Assembly: GCA_965204535.1 (NCBI GenBank)
Contig: CBDBEV010000001.1
Span: 1,920,001 to 1,984,000 of the forward strand
Reading direction: 5' to 3'
Source of the DNA: a bacterium
GTDB lineage: Bacteria > UBA8248
Length of the DNA stretch: 64,000 nt
Part shown: positions 48,205-60,941 of the stretch, piece by piece
How the letters are laid out: every line of letters starts with the position of its first letter
Position numbering within the stretch: the first letter of the stretch is position 1
Position numbers and translations under genes: made by a program
Notes under the pieces: generated by a model
Told to the model about the DNA's origin: nothing
The model's input: only the letters and a program-made list of their open reading frames with translations
The model's database searches: none

Positions 48205-49665
48205 TCAACCCGAACCCACCGCTTCCTCCCCGAAGCGCTCGATCGTCTCGAGCGTCTCGCGCACGTCGTCCCAGGTCGTGTTGTGATTGATGATGCAGAA
48301 CCGGAGCGCGAACTTCCCCTTGAGAAGGGTGGAGGACACGAACGCCTTGTCGTCCCAGAAGATGCGGGCGAGAACCGTTCTGTTAATCTCCTCCAGCGCT
48401 TCCTCGTCCAGGCCGGCCTCCGCCGGATTGACCCGGAAGCAAACGATGCCCAGCGAGACGGGTGTGAGCATCTCCAGATGCGGGCTTTCGCGAACATACG
48501 CCTCGGCACGCTCGGCCAGCTCCATGCCCCTGGAAACAGCGCGCCTGAACGCGACCATGCCGAAGGTCTGCACCGACATCCAGACCTTGAGCGCCCGGAA
48601 CGAGCGGCTCAGTTGCAGGCCGCGATCCGAGAAGTTGGGGTGGTTCGCGCCCCATATCGTGTCCTGGAGAATGTCGTGGCGCACCGCGAAGGCGCGCTCG
48701 AGCGTTTTCACGTCCTTCACGAGCAGGGCGCCCGCCTCGTAGGGCTGGAAGAACCACTTGTGCGCGTCCATCCCGATGGAATCGGCGCGCTCCATGCCGC
48801 TGAGGAGTTCCTTGCCCCACTCGGTGACGGTCGCGAAGCCGCCGTAGGCGGCGTCGACGTGCAGCCAGACCCCCTGCGCCTCGCAGAAATCCGCCATCTC
48901 CACAAGCGGATCGACGGCCCCCGTACTGGAGGCGCCCGCGTTGGCGCACACCGCGATGGGGTGGAGCCCCGCCGCGCGATCTTCCGCCACGGCGCGCGCG
49001 AGCGCTTCCATGTCCAGGCGGAAGCGTTCATCACACGGAAGAAGCCTGATGCGCTCGGGCCGAATACCGATGATGCGCGCCGCGCGGACGTGCGCGCTGT
49101 GGCTCTGATCGGCCATGTAGACGCTCGCGCGCTCGGGATGACCCGCCGCTTCGCGCGCCGCGACGAAGGCGTCCAGGCTCGCCGCCGACCCCCCGCTCGT
49201 GAAAAGCCCGCCCGCGCTCTCGGGGTAGCCGACCCAGCGCCGGAACCAGTCGATGACGACCAACTCCAACTGGCTCGGGCCGCTCGCGACCAGCCAGGTA
49301 CATTGATTGACGTGGAAGCCCGAGGCCATGAAGTCCGCCAGCACACCGGGCCAGGTGGGCGAGGAGGGGATGAAGCCGAAGAAGCGGGGATGATCGTTGC
49401 GCCCCGTGAGGGGAAGTATCTCACGCGCGGCGCGCTCCAGAACCTCCACCGCGGGCCGTCCGTCCTCGGGTGGAGCCTCCATCAGTTGTTTTTCGAGCTC
49501 CTGCTGAAAGTCTCCGTCCCAGGCGCCTTCCCCGGGGAGGTTTTCGGTTCGCTCCACCAGGAGTTCCGCCGCCCTGCGCGCCAGAGCGAGCATCGACTCG
49601 GGCGTCATGCGGAGGCCGTCGTCTCCAAAGTCCGACGCCTCTCTTCTCTCGGAACTCGCCATCAT
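48205..49665 (-). CDS. PLP-dependent group II decarboxylase (aromatic-L-amino-acid decarboxylase-like)
   Basis: HPRFFGFIP, WLHVDAAYGG, DAHKWFF, RALKVW; ATG after GGAGG. Confidence 0.9.
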   Translation of the reverse strand: MMASSERREASDFGDDGLRMTPESMLALARRAAELLVERTENLPGEGAWDGDFQQELEKQLMEAPPEDGRPAVEVLERAAREILPLTGRNDHPRFFGFIPSSPTWPGVLADFMASGFHVNQCTWLVASGPSQLELVVIDWFRRWVGYPESAGGLFTSGGSAASLDAFVAAREAAGHPERASVYMADQSHSAHVRAARIIGIRPERIRLLPCDERFRLDMEALARAVAEDRAAGLHPIAVCANAGASSTGAVDPLVEMADFCEAQGVWLHVDAAYGGFATVTEWGKELLSGMERADSIGMDAHKWFFQPYEAGALLVKDVKTLERAFAVRHDILQDTIWGANHPNFSDRGLQLSRSFRALKVWMSVQTFGMVAFRRAVSRGMELAERAEAYVRESPHLEMLTPVSLGIVCFRVNPAEAGLDEEALEEINRTVLARIFWDDKAFVSSTLLKGKFALRFCIINHNTTWDDVRETLETIERFGEEAVGSG

Positions 49666-49801
49666 GCCTCCACTGTCGTCCGGAACGATTGAAATACGTC
49701 GTGGGTCCAAGACGCCGGCGCAGGGCCCCGCCTCGCTCAACTCCCTTCACCGGAAGCTCGGACTTAAAGCGGAAATACCGGGATTTCTTCGATTCTATAT
49801 C

Positions 49802-50161: not shown

Positions 50162-50500
50162 ATGGAAATTAAGACTGAGCAGGAAAGCGGGACGTTGGTC
50201 GTGCAGGTTGACGGCCGCATCGACGGCGCCACCGCCCCGGATTTCGAGAGCACCATCAAGAACGTAATCAGCGAAGACGACCGCGCCGTCATCGTTAATT
50301 TCGAGGGAGTCTCGTATATCAGCAGCGCCGGCCTCCGCGCCGTTCTTCTCGTCGCCAAGCAGCTTAGTCAAAGCAACACGAAGTTCGCCCTGTACGCGCT
50401 CGGAGAACTGACGCGCGAGGTTTTCGAGATATCCGGCTTCGACCGCATCATTCAGATCCACAACTCGAAAGCGGACGCCCTCGCCGCGACCGCGAACTGA
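50162..50500 (+). CDS. STAS-domain anti-sigma factor antagonist (RsbV/SpoIIAA-like)
   Basis: GRIDGATA, phospho-Ser motif YISSAGLR, VFEISGF. Confidence 0.93.
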   Translation: MEIKTEQESGTLVVQVDGRIDGATAPDFESTIKNVISEDDRAVIVNFEGVSYISSAGLRAVLLVAKQLSQSNTKFALYALGELTREVFEISGFDRIIQIHNSKADALAATAN

Positions 50501-50644
50501 CGGCCGGAGGCGAAGAAGGAAAAACCTTTTTTTCGCCGTCTGACCTCCTGGATTCGCGAGTCGCGGCTTTCGCCGTGCCCCCCAACCATCTTTCGTCTTC
50601 CTCGATATTTTCTCGAATCTTTTCGGGTAGGAAGTCAGCGCGGA

Positions 50645-52834
50645 TCACCGCGGCAATTCGACGATCATTTCCGTGAATTCGTCCGGCTCGGTTTCGACCC
50701 GTATGTTTCCCCCATGCTGACGAATAATGTCGCTGGATAGAGAAAGGCCGAGCCCGGTGCCCTTGTCCGTCGGCTTGGTCGTGAAGAAGGGGTTGAATAT
50801 CTTCTCGACGACCTCGGGCGGCATCCCGCTCCCGTTGTCGCGAATGCGGACCTCGATGCCGTCCGGCCTGCACCTGGTAACGAGCTTCAGCGTGGGATCG
50901 TAGCGCGGCGCATCTTCGGCGGCGGCGACTTTTTGCCGTTTCTCATGGGTGGCGTAGCAGGCGTTGCTCACCATGTTCAGGAAGACGCGGCCCAGATCCT
51001 GCGGAATGACCTCGCATTCCACCATATCCGGATCCAAATCCCAATCGAGCGTGAGGTTGAAATTCGGGTCTGCCGCCCGTGCGCTGTGGTAGGCGAGGCG
51101 CGCGTGTTCGTCGAGCAGGGTGTTGATGTTGGTCGGCTGCGCCTCTCCCGAACCCCTGCCCATCTGGAGCATGCTCTCCACGATGTTGTTGGCCCGCTCC
51201 CCGTGTTCGCGGATGCGCTGGAGGTTGCCGGTGAGGTCTTCTCCGATTTCGGTGATGAGCTCGATCGGATCCTCTTCGTCCTGCTTTTTCTCCTCCTTGT
51301 CCTCCTGCGGTTCCTGCCCGTTTTCCTGCCCGTTGCCGCCGTGAGCCGCCATCTTCTCCAACTCTTCCATCAACTCCTCCATCAGCTCTTCGGAGACTTC
51401 CGAGAAGTTCTTGATGAAGTTCAGCGGATTTCTGATCTCGTGAGCCACGCCCGCCGTCAATTCACCGAGCGCCGCGAGTTTCTCGCGCATGACAATCTGA
51501 TCCTGCGCCTTTTCCAGATCGCCGAGCGCGCTTTCGAGTTCTTCGTTTTTGCCCTTGATCTCCTCGGCCAGTTTCTCCACCAGGTTGAGGCGCTGCACCT
51601 CCAGGGCATGGCGGCGGAAGATTTCGAGCGCGGCGGCCATTTCCGCGACTTCATCCTGCCCGCCGATATCGACTTTCTCCTCCAGATCGCCGTCGGCCAT
51701 GCGGCGCATGCGGTCCGAGAGCCGCCCGAGCCGACGCGAAAGCACACGGCCGATGAACAGCCAGCCGATCAGCACGGCGCCGATGAAACTGATGGCGCTC
51801 AGCGCGAGCAGGATGTTGCTGCCGGTGCTGATGGCCTGGGCGGAATCCTGGGTGGCCTGCTTCGCGCTCTTGCGGGCCGTGCCCACCAGCGTTTCGGTGG
51901 CGGCCAGAATTTTCGCTTCCTGAGATTCGTGAAACGCGAGCAACTCGCCCTGTTTCCTCTCGAGCGCCAGTTCACGCGCGCGCAGATTGAAACCTCCATC
52001 CTCCCCGATGCTCAACTCGATCATCTGTTCGAAGAGAGGCTCGAGAGCCGCGCGCACCGGAACCTTTCCAAGCGCGTTCATACGCCGCCGGATACCGCGC
52101 GCCGTGGCCTCGAAGCGCTCGCGCAACGGCTCGATCTGGGCGGCGTCCGATACGCTGAAAGCGGTAGCGAGAAGCTGGGTCGCGATAGTGGCGTCCGACC
52201 GCAAGCCGGCGATGTAGCGGTAGAGGTTAAACCCCTCCTCCGAGAAGTGCTTTTCACGGGGAACGGGCGCCGCGCCGATTTTGCCGTAACCCGTCATCGC
52301 GTAGAACAACTGATCGTCGATGGCGGGAACCATGACGTTGTTCAGCTCCTTGCGCACCCATGTGAGCTGGAGTTGGAGGGTATCGCGCAGATCGGTGAGA
52401 TTGAAGCGTTGCAGCACCAATCGTTTGATGGCATTGAGGTTCTCTATCAGCACGTCTCCGAGTTTCTTGATGCGCAAAGAGATTTCCTCATTCCCTTCCT
52501 GGCGAATCAGCGCCGCAAGCGCCGTCTCGAACGCCTCCTGGTCCTTGGCGACCTCGGTGGCTATTTGGTCCAGGATGTCAGGGTTCACCACCGCGGCCAG
52601 CCGCGGCGCGGCGGCCACCAGGGCGGTGCTCTCCTGGGCGATTCCGAAGGCGCTCGCCAGGAACGGGACGGTGCCTTCGTTCACGCGGTTCTGCACCTCG
52701 CCCACGAACCCGAACGAGACCCATGCAACCACGCTCGCGATGACGGTGAGAGAAGCGGCGGCGCCGATGCTGAGGTAGAGTTGCGTCGATATCTGGTAAC
52801 GCTTGTCCAGGAGGTTCTTCAGCGCGCTTTTCAT
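50645..52834 (-). CDS. Membrane sensor histidine kinase (large helical periplasmic domain, HAMP, HisKA, HATPase)
   Basis: Two TM helices, HAMP GDL..GQDEVAEM, H-box GVAHEIRNPL, NMVSNA, DNGSG, FFTTK, GTGLGL. Confidence 0.93.
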   Translation of the reverse strand: MKSALKNLLDKRYQISTQLYLSIGAAASLTVIASVVAWVSFGFVGEVQNRVNEGTVPFLASAFGIAQESTALVAAAPRLAAVVNPDILDQIATEVAKDQEAFETALAALIRQEGNEEISLRIKKLGDVLIENLNAIKRLVLQRFNLTDLRDTLQLQLTWVRKELNNVMVPAIDDQLFYAMTGYGKIGAAPVPREKHFSEEGFNLYRYIAGLRSDATIATQLLATAFSVSDAAQIEPLRERFEATARGIRRRMNALGKVPVRAALEPLFEQMIELSIGEDGGFNLRARELALERKQGELLAFHESQEAKILAATETLVGTARKSAKQATQDSAQAISTGSNILLALSAISFIGAVLIGWLFIGRVLSRRLGRLSDRMRRMADGDLEEKVDIGGQDEVAEMAAALEIFRRHALEVQRLNLVEKLAEEIKGKNEELESALGDLEKAQDQIVMREKLAALGELTAGVAHEIRNPLNFIKNFSEVSEELMEELMEELEKMAAHGGNGQENGQEPQEDKEEKKQDEEDPIELITEIGEDLTGNLQRIREHGERANNIVESMLQMGRGSGEAQPTNINTLLDEHARLAYHSARAADPNFNLTLDWDLDPDMVECEVIPQDLGRVFLNMVSNACYATHEKRQKVAAAEDAPRYDPTLKLVTRCRPDGIEVRIRDNGSGMPPEVVEKIFNPFFTTKPTDKGTGLGLSLSSDIIRQHGGNIRVETEPDEFTEMIVELPR

Positions 52835-54018
52835 CTTTTCTCCGGCCGCCGGATTTTTTCGGTTGGGATGTAGCGGCCGCCCTCGCCGACGACGGTGAGG
52901 AAAACGGCGTCCGACCCCTGGTTGTCGTCTTTGCCGAAGCGGAGCTTGAATCCGCCGAGGTCGATGGTGGCCGCGCGTCGCAGGCTTTTCAGAAGACAGT
53001 TGCGGTCGGGCTTGCGCCCGCACAACTCGAGGGCGCGAATGGCCAGTCTGCCGGCCATGTAGCCCTCGAATGAGACGAAGCTGGGAGTCGCGCCAGGTTT
53101 GTGAGTCTCCAGGTCCCGCCGGTAGTCGGCCGCGATCTCGAGATTCTCCATTGTCGGGAACGGAACCACCTGCGTGACGTAGATACCGACGCCGGCGGGG
53201 CCGAGTTCACGCACGAGCGCATTGCTGCCCACGAAGGATATTGTTACGAAAATCGGATTGAACCCCGTATGGCGCGCCCAGGCGATGAAGGAGGCGACCG
53301 GTTTGTAGGCCCCCACGAGGACCACCGCTTCGGGGTCCGCGCGCCTGATGTCGAGCAGGGCCGTTTTGACCGCCGTCGTATTCCGTGGATAGACTCCGGT
53401 GACCGCCGGTTTCAGGTTTCGTCGCTCCAGGGCGCGGCGAACGCCCCGGTAGCCCGCCAGACCGAAGGAATCGTTCTGGTAAAGCACGGCGATCTTCTTG
53501 ACGTCCAAGTCCTTGATCAGGCGATCCACTATCTCCTCGGTCTCCTGGAAATAGGAGGCCCGCAGGTTGATCACGTTCTTCCATTTGGGATCGCGCAAGA
53601 AGGCGGCGCCGGTGAAGGGCGCGATGTAGGGGACGTTCGCTTTTGCAGCGACTGGCGTGGCCGAGCGCGAGGTGGGCGTGCCGACGGCCCCGATGAGCGC
53701 GAAAACCTTGCTCTTCTCTATCAGCCGGCGGGTGTTCAGGATGGCGGCTTCGGGCTCATACGCATCGTCGAGGGATGTGAGTTCGAGCCGGCGTCCGTGA
53801 ACGCCGCCGCGCTCGTTCGCCGTGCGAAAGGCGGCTTCGACCCCGAGACGCATCTCCTCGCCCAGAACACTCGCGGGACCGGTGAAGGCGGCGGATTGAC
53901 CGAAAAGAATCCGGTCAGGAGAAACCCCGGGCACGGCCGCCTGCGCCCCCGACGCCGAGCAGATTATCGCTGCAGCAAGGAGGATAAACGCCCGGCAGAT
54001 TCGGAGTGGGAGGCTCAT
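52831..54018 (-). CDS. Periplasmic substrate-binding protein (LivJ-like) with no transporter nearby
   Basis: Signal peptide; GGVHGRRLEL..LDDAYEP, GAVGTPT, YQNDSFG; 4-nt overlap with the HK start. Confidence 0.9.
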   Translation of the reverse strand: MSLPLRICRAFILLAAAIICSASGAQAAVPGVSPDRILFGQSAAFTGPASVLGEEMRLGVEAAFRTANERGGVHGRRLELTSLDDAYEPEAAILNTRRLIEKSKVFALIGAVGTPTSRSATPVAAKANVPYIAPFTGAAFLRDPKWKNVINLRASYFQETEEIVDRLIKDLDVKKIAVLYQNDSFGLAGYRGVRRALERRNLKPAVTGVYPRNTTAVKTALLDIRRADPEAVVLVGAYKPVASFIAWARHTGFNPIFVTISFVGSNALVRELGPAGVGIYVTQVVPFPTMENLEIAADYRRDLETHKPGATPSFVSFEGYMAGRLAIRALELCGRKPDRNCLLKSLRRAATIDLGGFKLRFGKDDNQGSDAVFLTVVGEGGRYIPTEKIRRPEKR

Positions 54019-54434
54019 TCACTCCTCCGCTTGACAAGGCGCATATGGTTCTTGTTCTCCTCCCGTCGATAAGTCACATCGTCCATCATCGTCCGCACCA
54101 GGTGGATGCCGAGCCCGCCCACGGCGCGGTCTTCGATGCCCGAGTCGGTGTCCGGTTCGGGCGCGTCGGTCAGGGGATCGAACGGACGGCCGTCGTCGAT
54201 GATATCGATGATCACCGCCTCCGCGTCCGAGATGAGTTCGATGCTGATTTCCCCCCTTCCGCCTTCGCTACCATGATGCACGGCGTTGAGAATCAGCTCT
54301 TCGAGCACGAGGTCGACCTGGAATTCGATGTCGGGCGGCCAGTCCTGCTCCCGGCTGAATTCCCCGATGGCGGACTGGATGCGCGGGAGATCCGAGGCTT
54401 CGAATCCCATTGTCAAAGAAAGTTTCGCGCTCAT
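54015..54434 (-). CDS. RsbW/SpoIIAB-like anti-sigma factor Ser kinase
   Basis: EELILNAVHHG (N box), DDGRPFDP, GGLGIHLV. Confidence 0.92.
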   Translation of the reverse strand: MSAKLSLTMGFEASDLPRIQSAIGEFSREQDWPPDIEFQVDLVLEELILNAVHHGSEGGRGEISIELISDAEAVIIDIIDDGRPFDPLTDAPEPDTDSGIEDRAVGGLGIHLVRTMMDDVTYRREENKNHMRLVKRRSE

Positions 54435-55648
54435 TCACTCACTCCACGGCGAAAAAGGGTCAGGCAAGTAATATCATCGAATTGAGGCGCTTTGCCCGCG
54501 AATTCCTTTACATCCTCAAAAACCTTCGTGTTGATCTCCCGGGCCGAGGCCGGCGACGCCCCCCCCAGAATCTCCCGGAGGCGGTCGAGGCCGAACTGAT
54601 CGGTCTTCTCGTTCTCCGCCTCCGTGACGCCGTCGGTGTAGAGAACGAGGGCCTCACCGGGGGCGAGAGTCGCATTGTACATGTCGTAACTGAACTCGGG
54701 CGCGATCCCGAGGGCGACTCCCGGATCCTGGGAAAGCAGGCTCGATGAGCCGTCGGCGTGAAGGACGAGCGGGGGGTTGTGCCCGCCGTTGGCGTAGACG
54801 AGTTCCCCGGACGTGGAGTCGTAAATGGCGAAAAAGACGGTGACGAACATCGCGGCGTCGTTGTTCTCCTGAAGCAGGCGGTTCACCTCGCTCAACACAT
54901 CACCGGGCCGGAGCAGACGGTTCACCTCGCCGAGCACGTCGCCCGGATTGGCGCGAGCGACAGCGACGCTGTTGAGCAGCGTGCGGCTCGACATCATGAA
55001 AAGGGCGGCGGGCACCCCCTTGCCGGAAACGTCGGCGACCGTGATGCCGATGCGGCCGTCGGAAAGGTCTATCACGTCGAAGAAATCACCCCCCACGTCG
55101 CGGGCGGGCTCCATGCCCCCGAATATCTCGTAGTGGGGGCTTTCGGGGAATTTCGTCGGCAGAATCGATTGCTGCATCTTGCTGGCCAGGTCGAGGTCGC
55201 TCCTCAAGGCGACGAGCTTGTCGCGCGCCTCGAGCGCTTCGCGCAGCATGGCGAGGTGCTCCAGGGTCCGTTCTATGGTGATCCGCAAATCCTCGAAATC
55301 GATCGGCTTGGTGACGAAGTCGAAGGCGCCCCTGTTCATCGCCGTGCGGATGTTCTTCATGTCTCCATACGCCGAAACCACTACGGAGCGCACGTTGGGG
55401 TCGACCGAGGGGATTTGCTTGAGCAGGGTGAGGCCGTCCATCTCCGGCATGTTGATGTCCGTGAGCACCATGTCGATAGGGTCGCCGCCATCGTTATCGT
55501 TCAAGCGCTCAAGCGCTTCGACCCCGTTGCGGGCGAAGACGAACGAATAGCGGCCTCTTCGTATCTCGCGCCGCATGCGCTGTAACACGAGCTGCTCGAG
55601 ATCGGGCTCGTCGTCGACCACGAGTATCCTGTGGGGTTCCTCCATCAC
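54431..55648 (-). CDS. REC-SpoIIE/PP2C phosphatase (RsbU/RsbP-like)
   Basis: REC domain VVDDE..DINMP..KP; VGGDFFD, ADVSGKG, NGGHNPP, LYTDGVTE, DDIT. Confidence 0.93.
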   Translation of the reverse strand: MMEEPHRILVVDDEPDLEQLVLQRMRREIRRGRYSFVFARNGVEALERLNDNDGGDPIDMVLTDINMPEMDGLTLLKQIPSVDPNVRSVVVSAYGDMKNIRTAMNRGAFDFVTKPIDFEDLRITIERTLEHLAMLREALEARDKLVALRSDLDLASKMQQSILPTKFPESPHYEIFGGMEPARDVGGDFFDVIDLSDGRIGITVADVSGKGVPAALFMMSSRTLLNSVAVARANPGDVLGEVNRLLRPGDVLSEVNRLLQENNDAAMFVTVFFAIYDSTSGELVYANGGHNPPLVLHADGSSSLLSQDPGVALGIAPEFSYDMYNATLAPGEALVLYTDGVTEAENEKTDQFGLDRLREILGGASPASAREINTKVFEDVKEFAGKAPQFDDITCLTLFRRGVSE

Positions 55649-56085
55649 GGCCTCCCTTCCGCCAACATCTTGTCGCGCGCCTCGAAGGCTTCCCGCATCG
55701 ACTTGAGATGCTCCAAAGACTTCTCGATGGTAAGCCGCAAGTCCTCGAAATCAATCGGCTTGTTCAGGAAATCGAATGCGCCCCTGTTCATCGCCGTACG
55801 GATGTTCTTCATGTCCCCATACGCCGAGACGATGACACAGCGGAGCTTGGGGTCGAAAGCGGGGATTTGCTCGAGCAGGGTGAGGCCGTCCATCTCCGGC
55901 ATGTTGATGTCCGTGATGACGATGTCGATTTCATCGTCATTGTTTAAGCGCTCTAGCGCTTCGACCCCGTTGCGGGCGAAGACGAACGAATAGCGGCCGC
56001 TGCGAATTTCGCGCCGCATGCGCTGCAGCACCAGACCTTCAAGATCGGGTTCATCGTCGACTACGAGTATCCTGTGCGAATCCAT
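55645..56085 (-). CDS. Single-domain response regulator, close paralogue of the RsbU REC domain
   Basis: RILVVDDEPDLE..VLQRMRREIR.GRYSFVFARNGVEALERLN and SAYGDMKNIRTAMNRGAFDF are shared almost verbatim with the downstream gene. Confidence 0.9.
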   Translation of the reverse strand: MDSHRILVVDDEPDLEGLVLQRMRREIRSGRYSFVFARNGVEALERLNNDDEIDIVITDINMPEMDGLTLLEQIPAFDPKLRCVIVSAYGDMKNIRTAMNRGAFDFLNKPIDFEDLRLTIEKSLEHLKSMREAFEARDKMLAEGRP

Positions 56086-56478
56086 CGTCCGGGTCTCTCC
56101 ACCGCTTAGACTTAATCCGACCAACGATCAAGCACTTTCGAATTCCAGCTAAATGTATATAAGACTCACGCGGCGCGCAACTCATTTCTCACTCCGCCTC
56201 GTGCCCGAACGAACCTGCGCGGCGGCCTGCAACCCCCTGAAACCATGGCTTCACCGGCGCCCGCTCCCGGCATGAGGCCGCTCGGCCGCCGGATTTCGTC
56301 CATACCGGTTTCTCTTCCCGCGAGCATCCAGACCTCCTGAACCCATGAGGCGATTCCGCGCCGAATGTGGGTAAAGCGGCGAAAATTTCATCCGCCGCCC
56401 GGTTGTCCAGGCCCTCGGGTTCGCGTATCTTGGGGGACGAAGTGCCGCCATGCGCGAACCACCAGAGGAATCCCTGCT

Positions 56479-57066
56479 TTGACCCGTAAACCCAAAAGTA
56501 AAAAGAAAGGCGCAAGAGCCGCCGGAAGAAGGGCTCCGCGCCCGGCGAGAACCATTGGCTCGAAGAAGAAAAGCACCGCCCCGTTCGTGTGGGCGATCGT
56601 CATCGCCGCGGTCGTAATCGGCATCTACTACTTTACGGGCGCATCGGCGAACAAGGCGCGCGACGTGCCTTCCCTCGGCAACCGCCACATCCGCGTGGGC
56701 ACGAGCGGCGCCGTCGCCTACAACACGGACCCCCCCACATCGGGGCCTCACTATCCGACCATCGTCCCATGGGGCGTGCACTGGAAGCCGATCGACAAAG
56801 GTTTTCAAGTCCATAACCTCGAAGACGGCGGCGTGCTGGTGCAGTATGGCTGCGGCGATTGCCCCGAACTCGTGAAAAAACTCGAGAAAATCGTACGCGG
56901 CTACCCGAAGTTCGTCATCCTCGCCCCGTACCCGTCGATGAAACACAGAATCGCGCTCACCGCCTGGGGCAAGATAGATACGCTGGAGACTTTTGATGAG
57001 AAGCGCATCACCGCCTTCATCGACGCCTATCGCGGCCTCGACCACCACCCACGGGGGAGGAGATAG
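56479..57066 (+). CDS. DUF3105-like membrane-anchored protein
   Basis: One TM helix; YNTDPPTSGPHY, VHNLEDGGV, IALTAWG. Confidence 0.8.
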   Translation: MTRKPKSKKKGARAAGRRAPRPARTIGSKKKSTAPFVWAIVIAAVVIGIYYFTGASANKARDVPSLGNRHIRVGTSGAVAYNTDPPTSGPHYPTIVPWGVHWKPIDKGFQVHNLEDGGVLVQYGCGDCPELVKKLEKIVRGYPKFVILAPYPSMKHRIALTAWGKIDTLETFDEKRITAFIDAYRGLDHHPRGRR

Positions 57067-57172: not shown

Positions 57173-58945
57173 TCAACCCCCTCCGCCGCCGGCCGCGCCC
57201 GGAACCTCCACGCGCAGGGTCACGATGTCCGTGTCGTGGTATTGCTGGTGGCGAACCGAGGAGGCGAGGTGGCGCAGCAGTCTGAGCGAGACTTCACGCT
57301 CAATCGGCGCACCGGCGGTCTGCTCGCCGAGCAGCGCGATTTTGTCCTGAAGGTTATCCTCTCCGCCCGCGGCGACGAACTCCAGCACCGCGCCGCCGTC
57401 TTCTTTATGCGCCACCATGAGCAGACGCCGCCGCTTGCGGCTCTCGTCGGCTTCGTCCGGGCGCAGGAGCGTCAGCAGCGTTTCCTCGCCCGCGGCGTCG
57501 AGGCGATGCGCCATCGCCTCATCCCAGCCGCTGGCCGAGGCGAACTCACCGAGAAACTCCCTGATCTTCGGCAAGGCGGAGATGTCGAACGCCACCTCGA
57601 GACGGCTGCGGCGCGGTTCGGTGATCTCCACGAACAAGGTCATGATCATGGCGACGAGGCCGCCGGCCGTCATTCCGTTGTTCAAAAGGCCGCCCGCGAA
57701 CGTGGAGAAATACTCGGGATATATGACGCCGTTCTGGAAGCCGACACCCGCCCAGAACGCGACGCCCGCGACCAGCCCCTTGCGGTAGTCGATCCCGTCC
57801 TGAACGACCATCCGCATGCCGACCACGAAGAGCATCGCCAGCAGCACGGTGATGTAGGCCGCGGCGACCGGCCCCGGTATCGCCAGCACCACGGCGACCA
57901 GCTTGGGAAGAAACGCCAGGGCGAGGAACACCAGCCCGGCGGCGACTCCGACGCTGCGCGCGCCGACGCCGGTGAGTTCGGTGACGGACACGCTCGTCGA
58001 ATAGGTCGTGTTCGGCACCGTCGCCAAAAGGCCGGAGAGCAGGTTGCCCACTCCGTCGGCGGCCACCGCGCCCTGCACCGCCTTGAAGTCTACCGCCCGG
58101 GGCCGCCGCCAGGACACGCGCTGGATGGCGGCGCCGTCGCCCACGGTCTCGATGGCGCCGATCAGGGTCACGAAAACGAATCCCGGCAGAAGCGTCCAGA
58201 ACACCGGCCCGAAGCTCAGATCCAGGCCCGGCCATGTGCCCCGGGGAAGACCGATCCATGAAGCTTCGGCGACGCGGGCCGTATCGTAGATGCCGAACCA
58301 GAGTCCGACGAGCGAGCCCGCGACCACGCCGATCACCGGCGCCCACAGGCGCAGCGCACCCGTCGCCTTGAGCGCAATGCCGACGATGACCACCGCCGAC
58401 ACGAACGCGCTCAGCGGAGCTGCGAGCGGGGGAGCGCCCTTGGGCGCGTCATCGAGCATACCGAAGACGATGGGCATCACCGTCACCGCTATCAGCATGA
58501 TGACGGTTCCCGCCACGGTCGGCGTCAGCACCCGCCGGAACAACGAGAGACGCTCGGAAAGTACGAACTGAAAAAGCGAGGAGGCGAGGACCAGCGTGGC
58601 CAGCATCCCCGGCCCGCCCTTGGCGAGCGCCGCGATGCAGACCGCGATGAAAGCGCCCGATGTGCCCATGATGAGCACGTAGCCCGCGCCGAAGCGGCCG
58701 AGCCGGATCGCCTGGAGCATCGTGGTTGCGCCGCAGATCGCCACCGCGGCGAACACCGCCCACGAGAGATAGTCCTCGGCACCGCCGGCGGCGCGCACCA
58801 CGATCGCCGGCGTGAAAACGATGCCGCCCACGCAGAGGACGGCGAGTTGCAAGCCCAGGCCGAACGCGAGCAGGGGCGGTGGTTTCTCGTCGGCCTCGTA
58901 GCGTACGTCGGTGTTCGCGTGCCGGTCGGCGTCTTCGGCGCTCAT
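57173..58945 (-). CDS. NCS2 (xanthine/uracil permease family) protein fused to a C-terminal degenerate RsbW-like HATPase domain
   Basis: YEADEKPP, MGTSGAF, TPTVAGTVIMLI, ETVGD, ADGVGN, PNTTYS...LTGV; the C-terminal ~145 aa align with the neighbouring RsbW. Confidence 0.85.
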   Translation of the reverse strand: MSAEDADRHANTDVRYEADEKPPPLLAFGLGLQLAVLCVGGIVFTPAIVVRAAGGAEDYLSWAVFAAVAICGATTMLQAIRLGRFGAGYVLIMGTSGAFIAVCIAALAKGGPGMLATLVLASSLFQFVLSERLSLFRRVLTPTVAGTVIMLIAVTVMPIVFGMLDDAPKGAPPLAAPLSAFVSAVVIVGIALKATGALRLWAPVIGVVAGSLVGLWFGIYDTARVAEASWIGLPRGTWPGLDLSFGPVFWTLLPGFVFVTLIGAIETVGDGAAIQRVSWRRPRAVDFKAVQGAVAADGVGNLLSGLLATVPNTTYSTSVSVTELTGVGARSVGVAAGLVFLALAFLPKLVAVVLAIPGPVAAAYITVLLAMLFVVGMRMVVQDGIDYRKGLVAGVAFWAGVGFQNGVIYPEYFSTFAGGLLNNGMTAGGLVAMIMTLFVEITEPRRSRLEVAFDISALPKIREFLGEFASASGWDEAMAHRLDAAGEETLLTLLRPDEADESRKRRRLLMVAHKEDGGAVLEFVAAGGEDNLQDKIALLGEQTAGAPIEREVSLRLLRHLASSVRHQQYHDTDIVTLRVEVPGAAGGGGG

Positions 58946-59360
58946 GTCGTATCCTTCGCGGCTGGAAAACGGGTCCGTGGCGGATCCGATACCTCGGTTC
59001 GACCCCCTCGCAACGGAGCGTAAGTTTCTCACACCCTTTTCGGCCCCTCAAGAAAAAAGGCCCGCGAAGGATATCGACGGGCGAAAACCGACAAGCCTGC
59101 GGCATTTTCAGGCGAATATCGTGGTTTCGGGGGTTTTGGGTGCGAAAATCGCACTTTTTTCGGTGCATGAATACATTTTTGTTGACGAAAGAAACGCAAC
59201 ATATATACTTTTCTGAAAGCGTCTTCGTCTTATTTCGAGCGGAGGGACTGCAAGGCAAACACTCTCTCCCGAGCAAAGCGGCCGTGGCACCCAGGCAGTG
59301 GAGAACGAGGGGACACCACCTCGTTATCGGCCAGGGCCATATTCTGGAGAACTCGAGGCA

Positions 59361-59648
59361 GTGAAAACCGTAGAGGAAGTACGCGAAGAGATTGTCAGAA
59401 AAGCGAGCGAGAATGAGGCATTCCGCGCCGAATTGGTGGCCGACCCCAAAATCGCCATTGAAAAGGAATTGGGAGTCACCATTCCCGAGGGGTTCAAGAT
59501 CGGCGTGCACGAAGATAACATCATGAGCATCAACCTGGTGCTGCCGCCGGCCGAGTTGAGCGAGGAGGATCTGAGCGCCGTCGTGGCCGGAGCACAGATG
59601 TGGCAAGAATTCGCCAACGCCTGGAACAGCTTGAACCAGAACTCCTGA
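59361..59648 (+). CDS. NHLP (nitrile hydratase-like leader peptide) RiPP precursor, proteusin type
   Basis: IVRKA..NEAFRAELVADPK.AIEKELG..IP....I.VHED....LVLPP leader; ELSEEDLSAVVAG double-glycine-type site; core AQMWQEFANAWNSLNQNS. Confidence 0.9.
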   Translation: MKTVEEVREEIVRKASENEAFRAELVADPKIAIEKELGVTIPEGFKIGVHEDNIMSINLVLPPAELSEEDLSAVVAGAQMWQEFANAWNSLNQNS

Positions 59649-59843: not shown

Positions 59844-60941
59844 ATGATGTCTGAGAATTTCGGGGACGTCTTTCCAAGGTTGCGCCGCTTTGTTCCATCG
59901 GCCTTACTCAACGGCCCATGGTGGGACCGCCTGGTGGAGCGCGTCGGTGAACTTCCGAGTTGGCTGACTCTGAATTACGCGGCCTTCGAGTTTCGGCTGG
60001 GAGACTCTGCGCCCGCCGCCGATTATTTCGTCTCGGTTGCGCCGGGGCGTCCGTCCATGGAGTATTACGTTCGTCTGGGCGAGGCCGCAAAACCCGACTC
60101 CGCGGAGGCGGCTCTCGGCCGCGTCTACGCTCTCATGAATGGAGCGGGTCCCCCTTCCGAATCATCAATCATCGGCTGGTTCAGGGCGTCGATGCTCGAA
60201 TACGACATCGCGGAGGTCCCCCCGGACCTGCGCCCGGCCCCGGGCGTGTTCCTGGCGCTCAAGCCTCAATCCGAACTGGATGAAGACGCCGCGGGCTCAA
60301 GGACACCCCACCGCCTGGCCGCCACCATAGCGAACGCGGTCGGGTGGGAGGAGGACGAGGCGGAGCGCCTCGCCGTGGAGCGGGCCTTCGCCGCCTTGCC
60401 CGGAAGTGGCGTGGTGGATCAGATTGGCGCCGCCCCCGAGCGCGGGCCGCGCCTGATTCGCCTGATCGTGGACGGGTTGAAACTGCGCAATGTGCCCGCA
60501 TTCCTGAAACGGCTGAAATGGGATGGCTCCACCCGGAAAGTGATGGACACGCTGGAGGAGATGCGCGATATGACGCCCGTCTTCCGAATGGCGCTGGACG
60601 TCTCCGCGCACGGCGTGGGGCCGCGCCTGGGTCTTGAGATGTACAGGCCGAGAAGCCCCTCGGACCTCGACTACTGGCTGACTTCGGGGCGCAACGCCTG
60701 GCGTCCCGTCATGAACTATCTAGAAGATATGAAATGGTGTCTGCCGGAGAAGGGGGACGGCCTGCGGGCGTTCCCGGGAATCGAGAGACTCTTCGAGGAA
60801 AAGGGCATGTCCATCCTGTACAAGGGAATCAACCACTTCAAGCTCTCGATCGAGGGCGACGCCGTAGAAGCCAAGGCCTACGCCGCCCTCGCCTACTTCC
60901 GGCTCTACGCCGACTCGGAGGGTGAATCGGAGCCGGGGTGA
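59844..60941 (+). CDS. Hypothetical protein, candidate RiPP maturase (possibly an ABBA-type prenyltransferase)
   Basis: 365-aa ORF immediately after the precursor; FEFRL, LEYD, PGVFL, LDV...PRLGLE, NHFKL...EAKAY motifs. The ORF is solid; the function is inferred. Confidence 0.6.
   Translation: MMSENFGDVFPRLRRFVPSALLNGPWWDRLVERVGELPSWLTLNYAAFEFRLGDSAPAADYFVSVAPGRPSMEYYVRLGEAAKPDSAEAALGRVYALMNGAGPPSESSIIGWFRASMLEYDIAEVPPDLRPAPGVFLALKPQSELDEDAAGSRTPHRLAATIANAVGWEEDEAERLAVERAFAALPGSGVVDQIGAAPERGPRLIRLIVDGLKLRNVPAFLKRLKWDGSTRKVMDTLEEMRDMTPVFRMALDVSAHGVGPRLGLEMYRPRSPSDLDYWLTSGRNAWRPVMNYLEDMKWCLPEKGDGLRAFPGIERLFEEKGMSILYKGINHFKLSIEGDAVEAKAYAALAYFRLYADSEGESEPG

What the first reader, a model, noticed from the sequence alone, without database searches (positions are those of the whole stretch)
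57173..58945. NCS2 nucleobase permease fused to a pseudo-RsbW domain: candidate transceptor
Seen: the C-terminal domain (~57173-57620) aligns without gaps to the RsbW-like kinase 2.7 kb away. LEVAFDISALPKIREFLGEFASASGWDEAMAHRLDAAGEETLLTLL vs LTMGFEASDLPRIQSAIGEFSREQDWPPDIEFQVDLVLEELILNAV gives 14/46 identities by hand, and EVSLRLLRHLASSVRHQQ matches GLGIHLVRTMMDDVTYRR. All ATP-binding motifs are gone (N-box Asn to Thr, DDG to AAG, GLG to EVS). The permease is also altered: the NCS2 TM1 QH is QL and the NAT signature QNxG is TSVS, while ETVGD is kept. Established: RsbW/SpoIIAB proteins dimerise and bind STAS proteins, and NCS2 shares the 7+7 TM fold with SulP/SLC26 transporters, which carry STAS domains. 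Inference: this is a membrane sensor with a changed ligand site whose pseudokinase binds the STAS protein or heterodimerises with RsbW, feeding a transport or ligand signal into partner switching. I know of no description of this architecture.
Basis: partly seen in the sequence, partly recalled or inferred. Interest (0 to 1): 0.88.

Follow-up and report, generated by a model that had tools for sequence, protein, structure and literature searches.

The report
Permease with dead RsbW-kinase tail
This membrane transporter of the nucleobase-permease family ends in a domain predicted to fold like a bacterial partner-switching kinase but lacking its ATP-binding residues, and it likely lets that phospho-switch control transport directly, a link I did not find described in print.

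Summary
The fusion is real. An NCS2 permease ends in a 138-aa domain whose model matches RsbW-type proteins (VIA Z 16.3 to UsfX, 15.2 to RsbW; histidine kinases 7.7 or less). The ATP-binding residues are replaced across about 480 family members, while the catalytic-base Glu is kept.

The family spans many phyla, probably sponge symbionts. A 65% identical paralogue in this genome sits in a Sup-type PKS cluster, so the gene is a paralogue of 'SupE', named in print only as a permease.

The pocket is rebuilt, not decayed. Subfamilies keep distinct signatures: the Arg type lies beside Sup PKS, and the window's Glu/Asp type is 95% conserved.

Adjacency to Rsb genes holds in this genus but is rare elsewhere (6 of 88 matches). 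Co-occurrence is strong: in two orders every carrier has RsbW (14/14 and 16/16, against 2/42 and 18/85 non-carriers). None of 41 carriers has a SigB/F-type sigma factor.

Best reading (0.42): a transporter gated by STAS docking, the switch's output rather than its sensor. Binding is untested. This scan noted the same architecture on other DNA at least six times.

The parts
57173..58945 (-). Fusion gene, 590 aa: NCS2 permease plus pseudo-RsbW tail (SupE-family paralogue, Glu/Asp-pocket subfamily)
57623..58894 (-). NCS2/NAT permease domain, residues about 18-441
   Evidence: PF00860 E 9.7e-43; TIGR00801 residues 23-437; alignment to UapA
57200..57613 (-). Pseudo-RsbW domain, residues 445-582, starting right after the last membrane helix
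   Evidence: AF2 pLDDT 81; VIA Z 16.3 to UsfX; hhalign 92.8
58844..58849 (-). TM1 Q33-L34 (UapA Q85-H86)
58136..58150 (-). TM8 E266-T-V-G-D270 (UapA E356, D360), kept
57986..58009 (-). TM10 signature TTYSTSVS, residues 313-320 (UapA TTFAQNNG)
57470..57487 (-). Altered N-box EETLLT, residues 487-492: E487/E488 kept, Asn replaced by Thr
56365..57066 (+). DUF3105 gene (start uncertain) lying between fusion and cassette; upstream of the fusion in L083/L084
55645..56085 (-). Stand-alone receiver protein, about 80% identical to the receiver of the phosphatase
54431..55648 (-). Receiver-PP2C (RsbU-like) phosphatase; the only SpoIIE match in the genome
54015..54434 (-). RsbW-like kinase with intact N, G1 and G2 motifs; the only PF13581 match in the genome
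52831..54018 (-). Periplasmic binding protein (Peripla_BP_6)
50645..52834 (-). TorS-like sensor histidine kinase
50162..50500 (+). STAS anti-anti-sigma protein with the conserved phospho-acceptor-type Ser55; proposed partner of the tail

Best explanation
The gene encodes an NCS2-family permease whose last 138 residues are predicted to fold as an RsbW-type kinase domain and lack the ATP-binding residues, and this tail likely docks the cell's STAS protein so that the partner switch would turn transport on or off. Shown: the domain content, the lost ATP site, selection on the tail and on a rebuilt pocket, and co-occurrence with an active RsbW. Inferred: the binding protein and sensor kinase activate the receiver-PP2C; PP2C and RsbW set the phosphorylation of STAS Ser55; one phospho-form of STAS (most likely the unphosphorylated one, as for kinase-negative RsbW1) binds the tail through the retained E488 face. 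Also inferred: the two tails pair under the permease dimer, and binding restrains or frees the transport motion, since the tail starts within a few residues of the last membrane helix. The cargo is unknown. The acidic pocket (E266, D270, D297, Y315 kept; H, F, Q and N equivalents lost) suggests a small nitrogenous or cationic solute rather than xanthine or uracil. One switch would govern several paralogues with different cargos, including the Sup PKS copy.
For: Fold; four family members hit PF13581 at E about 1e-5 to 1e-6. Dead but selected: among 494 distinct tails, E487 and E488 are each kept in 471 of 474; the D80 column has no Asp in 482; the G109 column has no Gly in 473; the N50 column is T or S in 427 of 475. 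Tail dN/dS is 0.07-0.22 in 8 close relatives. Tail residues 532-535 ([LI][QE]DR) match RsbW I100-R103 best of all ungapped windows (13.3 against 6.4 next; chosen after seeing it). The corresponding Glu and Arg face the STAS serine region in SypE/SpoIIAB (PMC10120452 section 14). Kinase-negative RsbW1 binds unphosphorylated RsfB (PMC7693655 abstract and passages). Co-occurrence: 40/40 carriers have PF13581; order of G082, 14/14 against 2/42; order of G073, 16/16 against 18/85. The kinase partner comes in two architectures. Missing output: SigB/F/G in 0 of 41 carriers and FliA-like in 5 of 41; four 1.7-2.2 Mb carriers show only three sigma-70 factors: an RpoD-sized one, RpoH and an ECF-sized one. 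Transport role: pocket columns are 95% conserved against 80% for the permease in 26 dereplicated Glu/Asp copies, and 19 of 25 Arg-type copies lie beside a Sup-type PKS against 0 of 74 Glu/Asp copies. Adjacency: 99 bp upstream of the phosphatase in L083; beside STAS in a published fosmid (PMC3908369 Table 1).
Against: Only 6 of 88 matches in 40 genomes lie within 15 kb of RsbW (three lineages; about 1 expected by chance; read). Co-occurrence may reflect a shared symbiont gene pool, and kin are not independent. G009 and G037 (99% and 98% complete) keep the cassette without the fusion, so it has another output; G024 has the fusion and no RsbW match. The own genome has an RpoS-like and two ECF-type factors that could be targets. 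The basic alpha-1 residues that contact STAS aspartates in SypE are poorly conserved in the tail (K460 37%, R462 44%). The most conserved tail surface includes a beta4-beta5 stretch (H566, Q567, Q568, H570, D573) that RsbW lacks, which points to a new interface. Residues essential for transport in XanQ/UapA are changed (PMC5972032 passages).
Confidence: 0.42

Rival explanations
1. The tail is an old RsbW relic now used only as a structural or metabolite-responsive domain of the permease dimer, independent of STAS. Co-occurrence with RsbW reflects a common sponge-symbiont gene pool.
For: 82 of 88 matches are not near RsbW. The tail has a new conserved surface not shared with RsbW. The STAS-contacting basic residues are weakly conserved. 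In SLC26/SulP the analogous STAS domain is needed for stability and function (PMC8256260 passage). The cassette itself is spread across the same phyla.
Against: The near-invariant E487/E488 and the retained LEDR motif are hard to explain without a partner. Carriers almost never lack RsbW, even at 1.6-2.2 Mb. Adjacency occurs in four lineages in different arrangements.
Confidence: 0.25
2. Transceptor: ligand binding in the rebuilt pocket changes the tail, which sequesters or releases STAS and so feeds a signal into the switch.
For: H86, F155, Q408 and N409 equivalents are lost. A variable pocket with a constant tail resembles receptor families. In L083/L084 the gene heads the cassette on the same strand. 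The Rsb-adjacent Nitrospirales copies and L011 have lost the acidic pocket residues. No purine-catabolism genes were found among the 110 neighbour ORFs scanned.
Against: The cassette has its own input (binding protein, sensor kinase, receiver-PP2C; or dCache-PP2C-RsbW). This model leaves the output unexplained in genomes without a suitable sigma factor. Arg-type copies sit inside a biosynthetic cluster, as transporters do.
Confidence: 0.23
3. The tail heterodimerises with the active RsbW and inhibits or membrane-tethers it, as proposed for M. smegmatis RsbW3.
For: RsbW3 lacks kinase activity and binds RsbW1 (PMC7693655 passages). The region most similar to the window RsbW is the N-terminal beta1-alpha1-alpha2 part, and RsbW dimers form along beta1 (PMC10120452 passage).
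Against: Conserved R445, R448 and E450 on beta1 would also suit self-pairing under a permease dimer (NCS2 dimers recalled). Up to 4-5 paralogues face a single RsbW in many genomes.
Confidence: 0.1

Closest known systems
SupE permease of the sup PKS cluster of sponge symbionts (ABE03914; named in PMC3908369 Table 1)
   Same: Same family by inference: the 65% identical paralogue of this genome lies in a PKS-ACP-PPTase-permease-ACP-hydrolase cluster. The paper's 557-aa SupE homologue lies beside STAS genes.
   Different: The window copy is not near a PKS and has a Glu/Asp pocket where Sup-linked copies have Arg. The print I saw calls SupE only a permease, with no mention of a tail. I could not compare with ABE03914 itself.
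NCS2/NAT transporters UapA, UraA, XanQ, SVCT1 (PF00860)
   Same: Pfam match over cut-off; Q85, S154, E356, D360, D388, an aromatic at 406, T416 and G/R417 equivalents kept.
   Different: H86, F155, Q408, N409 and G411 equivalents replaced; below all NCBIfam cut-offs; extra C-terminal RsbW-fold domain.
RsbW/SpoIIAB kinases and kinase-negative RsbW1/RsbW3/UsfX (PF13581; PDB 8ih8, 6m36, 3ke6, 1l0o)
   Same: Predicted fold (Z 14-16); E45/E46 kept; kinase-negative homologues that act by binding exist (PMC7693655).
   Different: Fused to a transporter; N, G1 and G2 motifs gone; lid shortened; no SigB/F partner in the carriers searched.
SLC26/SulP anion transporters with a C-terminal STAS domain
   Same: A 7+7 membrane domain plus a cytoplasmic domain taken from partner switching (PMC8256260 passages; shared fold with NCS2 recalled).
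   Different: Here the fused domain is the kinase-fold partner rather than STAS, the mirror-image arrangement.
Non-canonical STAS switches with unknown targets (SypA/SypE, HmpUVW, BtrUVW, RbaVW)
   Same: Phosphatase, kinase and STAS without an evident sigma factor; the STAS protein acts on unknown targets (PMC8256260 passages).
   Different: Here a candidate target with the right fold is encoded nearby.

Membership tests
NCS2/NAT (PF00860) | Profile match over the curated Pfam cut-off | tested here: met
   146.8 bits against 27
NCS2/NAT (PF00860) | NCBIfam NCS2 superfamily or subfamily cut-offs | tested here: not met
   TIGR00801 168.6 against 291.8; pbuX 187.6 against 414; NCS2_1 39.9 against 40
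NCS2/NAT (PF00860) | TM1 Gln-His motif | tested here: not met
   Q33-L34; no His among the eight commonest residues at this column in 41 diverse members
NCS2/NAT (PF00860) | TM10 NAT signature [QEP]-N-x-G | tested here: not met
   T317-S318-V319-S320
NCS2/NAT (PF00860) | TM8 Glu and Asp/His, TM9 Asp | tested here: met
   E266, D270, D297; invariant in 26 of 26 dereplicated Glu/Asp copies, E266/D270 by definition of the group
NCS2/NAT (PF00860) | 14-helix 7+7 fold | tested here: inconclusive
   Alignment to UapA over residues 18-402; 12 hydrophobic stretches, one spanning 324-385; no full-length model in hand
NCS2/NAT (PF00860) | Cation-coupled nucleobase or ascorbate transport | not testable with these tools
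   Needs an uptake assay
RsbW/SpoIIAB serine kinase (PF13581) | RsbW-type Bergerat fold | tested here: met
   Predicted model: Z 16.3, rmsd 2.2, 110 aligned to 8ih8; Z 15.2 to 6m36
RsbW/SpoIIAB serine kinase (PF13581) | N-box Asn, G1 Asp, G2 Gly-x-Gly | tested here: not met
   T492, A525, E551-V-S553; lost family-wide
RsbW/SpoIIAB serine kinase (PF13581) | Catalytic-base Glu (E46) | tested here: met
   E488 in 471 of 474 tails
RsbW/SpoIIAB serine kinase (PF13581) | Binds a STAS protein, a sigma factor or itself | not tested
   No complex model or experiment in hand
SupE (sup cluster permease) | Encoded in a Sup-type PKS cluster | tested here: not met
   Window copy has no PKS in its 20 kb surroundings; the paralogue at G000:C2:2405673-2407403 does
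SupE (sup cluster permease) | Arg at the TM8 Glu position, as in Sup-adjacent copies (feature defined here) | tested here: not met
   E266 in the window copy; 19 of 19 listed Sup-adjacent copies have Arg
SupE (sup cluster permease) | Sequence likeness to ABE03914 | not testable with these tools
Transceptor | Signals on ligand binding independently of transport | not testable with these tools
   Needs experiment

The most novel reading that the evidence does not exclude
Sponge symbionts of many phyla share a sigma-less partner switch whose output is a family of NCS2-fold transporters. A phospho-regulated STAS protein docks on a fused pseudo-RsbW domain and gates several paralogues whose pockets have been rebuilt for new, non-nucleobase cargos, including the cargo of the ubiquitous Sup PKS. 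This would be the first named target class for a non-canonical STAS switch acting on transport, and the mirror image of SLC26-STAS.
Probability: 0.35. Interest if true: 0.86.

Novelty: new variant of a known kind. Interest (0 to 1): 0.66.

Why it matters
Several STAS/RsbW/PP2C switches act on unknown targets (PMC8256260). A transporter carrying a dead RsbW domain offers a concrete target that can be tested with two small soluble proteins. It would show partner switching controlling membrane transport without transcription. It also gives the unexamined SupE permease of the sponge Sup PKS a structure and a likely regulator. Finally, it supplies natural NCS2 variants with sharply different pockets (Glu/Asp, Arg, Gln/Gly-Phe-Arg-Pro) for studying how this fold changes specificity.

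Tried and rejected
Pfam and NCBIfam do not detect the window's tail (only RsbA at E 0.044). A sequence search of PDB with a narrow tail profile gave only designed repeat proteins and a D-Ala ligase, judged chance.

The Foldseek 'pdb' search never ran.

No RNA holder was listed for the locus.

'Conserved synteny with Rsb genes' was rejected as a general rule. 'Degenerate, non-binding pocket' was rejected for the window's subfamily. 'Ordinary purine permease in a purine pathway' found no support: no purine-catabolism gene among 110 scanned ORFs near about 38 copies, though two loci have a purE-type gene, and the genome has a separate tail-less NCS2 gene.

RsbW co-occurrence in the own phylum is uninformative (19 of 30 non-carriers have it). 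The order of G077 (4 of 201 carriers) was not paired with an RsbW search. Fisher tests are not used because kin are not independent. The promoter and terminator scan was at chance level.

Literature searches found no description of the architecture. Subscription papers, including Fieseler 2007 and Hochmuth 2010, and all supplements were not seen and could mention it.

Full report
Observation. The minus-strand ORF 57173-58945 encodes 590 residues. Residues 30-402 match the NCS2 permease family (E 1e-42). The last 140 residues match nothing in Pfam but resemble the RsbW gene 2.74 kb away: 14 of 43 identities, score 70 against 30 +/- 5 in 5000 shuffles, none reaching it. Profiles of 62 tails and 25 RsbW proteins align over 129 columns (probability 92.8, E 4e-7). 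An AlphaFold model of the tail (pLDDT 81) was compared with 48,161 PDB representatives. It matches UsfX (Z 16.3, rmsd 2.2, 110 residues), B. subtilis RsbW and Rv1364c (both Z 15.2), SpoIIAB (14.1), SiaB (11.7) and LvrC (10.9), well above histidine kinases (7.7 or less). The ESM Atlas feature search also listed a cluster with 15% PF13581 members at 0.96, and four family members hit PF13581 weakly.

The tail is dead but selected. Among 494 distinct tails, the G1 Asp is absent in all 482 scored and the G109 column has no Gly in 473. The N-box Asn column is Thr or Ser in 427 of 475; two rows showed Asn there, apparently shifted by one position. In contrast E487 and E488, matching RsbW E45 and the catalytic-base E46, are each kept in 471 of 474. 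Tail residues 532-535 match RsbW I100-R103 best of all ungapped windows, a test chosen after seeing the motif. So the lid seems shortened while the Arg that faces the phospho-site is mostly kept (Arg in 370 of 481; Lys in the window). In SypE/SpoIIAB these Glu and Arg residues face the STAS serine region (PMC10120452, passages and section 14 read). The basic alpha-1 residues that contact STAS aspartates there are weakly conserved here, and a beta4-beta5 stretch is conserved that RsbW lacks. Tail dN/dS is 0.07-0.22 in eight close relatives and 0.37 in the distant L083. The tail begins a few residues after the last hydrophobic stretch (424-442) with an Arg-rich segment, so it is inferred to be cytoplasmic.

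The family. 3097 proteins match the tail among 5647 candidates of similar length, and 579 clusters at 50% identity. Record titles span Nitrospinota (the closest), Alpha- and Gammaproteobacteria, Latescibacterota, Nitrospirales, Binatia, Terriglobia, Verrucomicrobia-type lineages and others at 63-97% tail identity. That these are sponge symbionts is inferred from the Sup PKS link and from recalled bin-name series. In the window's phylum, 20 of 22 genomes of its genus carry the fusion and 1 of 29 others does. A second copy in this genome (65% identical) lies in a cluster of PKS (DH-MT-ER-KR-ACP-KS-AT in the part fetched), ACP, PPTase, permease, ACP and hydrolase. Earlier scan notes pointed me to the Sup cluster. 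PMC3908369 (passages and section 5 part 1 read) lists a 557-aa 'Permease' whose best hit is SupE and whose neighbour is an anti-anti-sigma factor. The window gene is therefore a SupE paralogue by inference; I could not compare with the SupE record.

The pocket is rebuilt, not decayed. A tree of 136 copies and counts on 134 of them (L097, a broken copy, and L089, a duplicate, were dropped) give groups by the two TM8 residues. Glu/Asp, the window type: 74 copies, none beside a Sup-type PKS, and 14 near Rsb genes, 13 of them from this genus. Arg: 25 copies, 19 beside a Sup-type PKS by my list. Gln/Gly with Arg-Pro in TM10: 18 copies, several beside TRAP and YciI genes. Other: 17. These loci are not an even sample: many are kin, and four (L102, L103, L113, L114) were fetched because they lay near RsbW. 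In 26 Glu/Asp copies dereplicated at 80%, 19 pocket columns are 95% conserved against 80% for the permease; two of the 19 define the group. Equivalents of UapA H86, F155, Q408, N409 and G411 are changed. Q408P cuts nucleobase binding more than 100-fold (PMC5972032, passages read), so xanthine or uracil transport is unlikely. No purine-catabolism gene turned up among 110 neighbour ORFs.

Link to partner switching: adjacency. In this genus 18 of 20 carriers have a copy within 5 kb of RsbW on one contig, and the other two are on broken contigs (read). In L083 and L084 the fusion directly precedes the phosphatase on the same strand. Elsewhere adjacency is rare: 6 of 88 matches in 40 genomes lie within 15 kb of one of 70 PF13581 matches (Nitrospirales, Latescibacterota, Defluviicoccus), where about one is expected (read).

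Link to partner switching: co-occurrence. All 40 of those carriers have PF13581 over the cut-off, against 6 of 14 control genomes. In two whole-order samples, carriers have it in 14 of 14 and 16 of 16, and non-carriers in 2 of 42 and 18 of 85. The partner is either the same five-gene cassette as in the window or a dCache-HAMP-PP2C-RsbW fusion (3 of 3 examined). Against this: G009 and G037 keep the cassette without the fusion, G024 has the fusion without an RsbW match, and kinship or a shared symbiont gene pool could produce the pattern.

Direction. The cassette has an input (binding protein, TorS-like kinase, receiver-PP2C) but no sigma factor. At E 1e-45, none of 41 carriers has a SigB/F/G match and five have a FliA-like one (B. 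subtilis rings as control; divergent factors could be missed). Four carriers of 1.7-2.2 Mb show three sigma-70 factors each. The four mid-sized ones are RpoH and the one small one tested is RpoE. The window's genome has in addition an RpoS-like and two ECF-type factors. STAS switches with unknown targets are known (PMC8256260, passages read). Kinase-negative RsbW homologues act by binding: RsbW1 binds unphosphorylated RsfB and RsbW3 binds RsbW1 (PMC7693655, abstract and passages read). The simplest reading is that the tail is the missing STAS-binding output and gates transport (0.42). All binding steps are inferred.

Novelty. Seven literature searches found no description of an NCS2 permease with an RsbW-fold tail; subscription papers and supplements were not seen. 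One subfamily appears in print as SupE, a permease. This scan has noted the same architecture on other genomes at least six times; those notes are leads, not support. Verdict: a real, widespread and apparently undescribed variant of known parts, with a specific hypothesis that is cheap to test. Interest 0.66.

Noticed in passing
window 59298-59648 (+) and 59847-60941 (+): NHLP-leader RiPP precursor (TIGR03793 over cut-off) followed by a 364-aa ORF with no Pfam or NCBIfam match, divergent from the fusion gene. The same pair (37% and 31% identity) lies just downstream of another fusion copy in L019, from a different phylum.
   Followed up: partly
L001 7966-20000 (G000:C2 about 2403900-2416000): Sup-type PKS cluster with two free ACPs, a PPTase, the Arg-pocket paralogue and an alpha/beta hydrolase; upstream lie two dioxygenase-like genes, a Rieske-type gene and an integrase-like gene.
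   Followed up: partly
L002 7325-8376 (G000:C1 about 719300-720400): The genome's second STAS gene is followed by a GPP34/GOLPH3-like gene. GPP34 homologues also lie near fusion copies in L073, L102, L103 and L145, and near STAS in L112. A possible further output of the switch.
   Followed up: partly
window 50162-56085; L099-L118: The cassette receiver-PP2C, RsbW, binding protein, TorS-like kinase and STAS recurs, in shuffled order, in genomes of several phyla (13 of 20 loci fetched around RsbW show the binding protein and kinase). It holds no sigma factor.
   Followed up: partly
L168 3037-5607, L169 6208-8823, L170 3432-6161: Single-protein switches dCache-HAMP-PP2C-RsbW (857-910 aa), two of them with a STAS gene within about 2 kb.
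   Followed up: partly
L011 8465-10447; L057, L113, L114: Rsb-adjacent copies that have lost the acidic pocket residues (TM8 Q/N or Q/A; TM9 T or A). In L011 this occurs at the same locus as the window.
   Followed up: no
window 48205-49740 (-): PLP-dependent decarboxylase right beside the STAS gene, kept and often duplicated in relatives of the genus. A possible source of an amine cargo or signal.
   Followed up: no
L151 10936-14594, L152 11716-14723: Tandem genes with repeated Cache domains directly upstream of a Lys/Asp-pocket copy of the fusion in Latescibacterota.
   Followed up: no
L103 1237-11524: Two tandem fusion genes of different pocket type between a PKS and STAS-GPP34, followed by an ammonium transporter, a second STAS and a glutamine-synthetase-like gene.
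   Followed up: no
L165 4310-5605 (G000:C2 about 1200300-1201600): A separate tail-less NCS2 gene of 432 aa in the own genome, AzgA-like by its N-terminal motif (label recalled).
   Followed up: no
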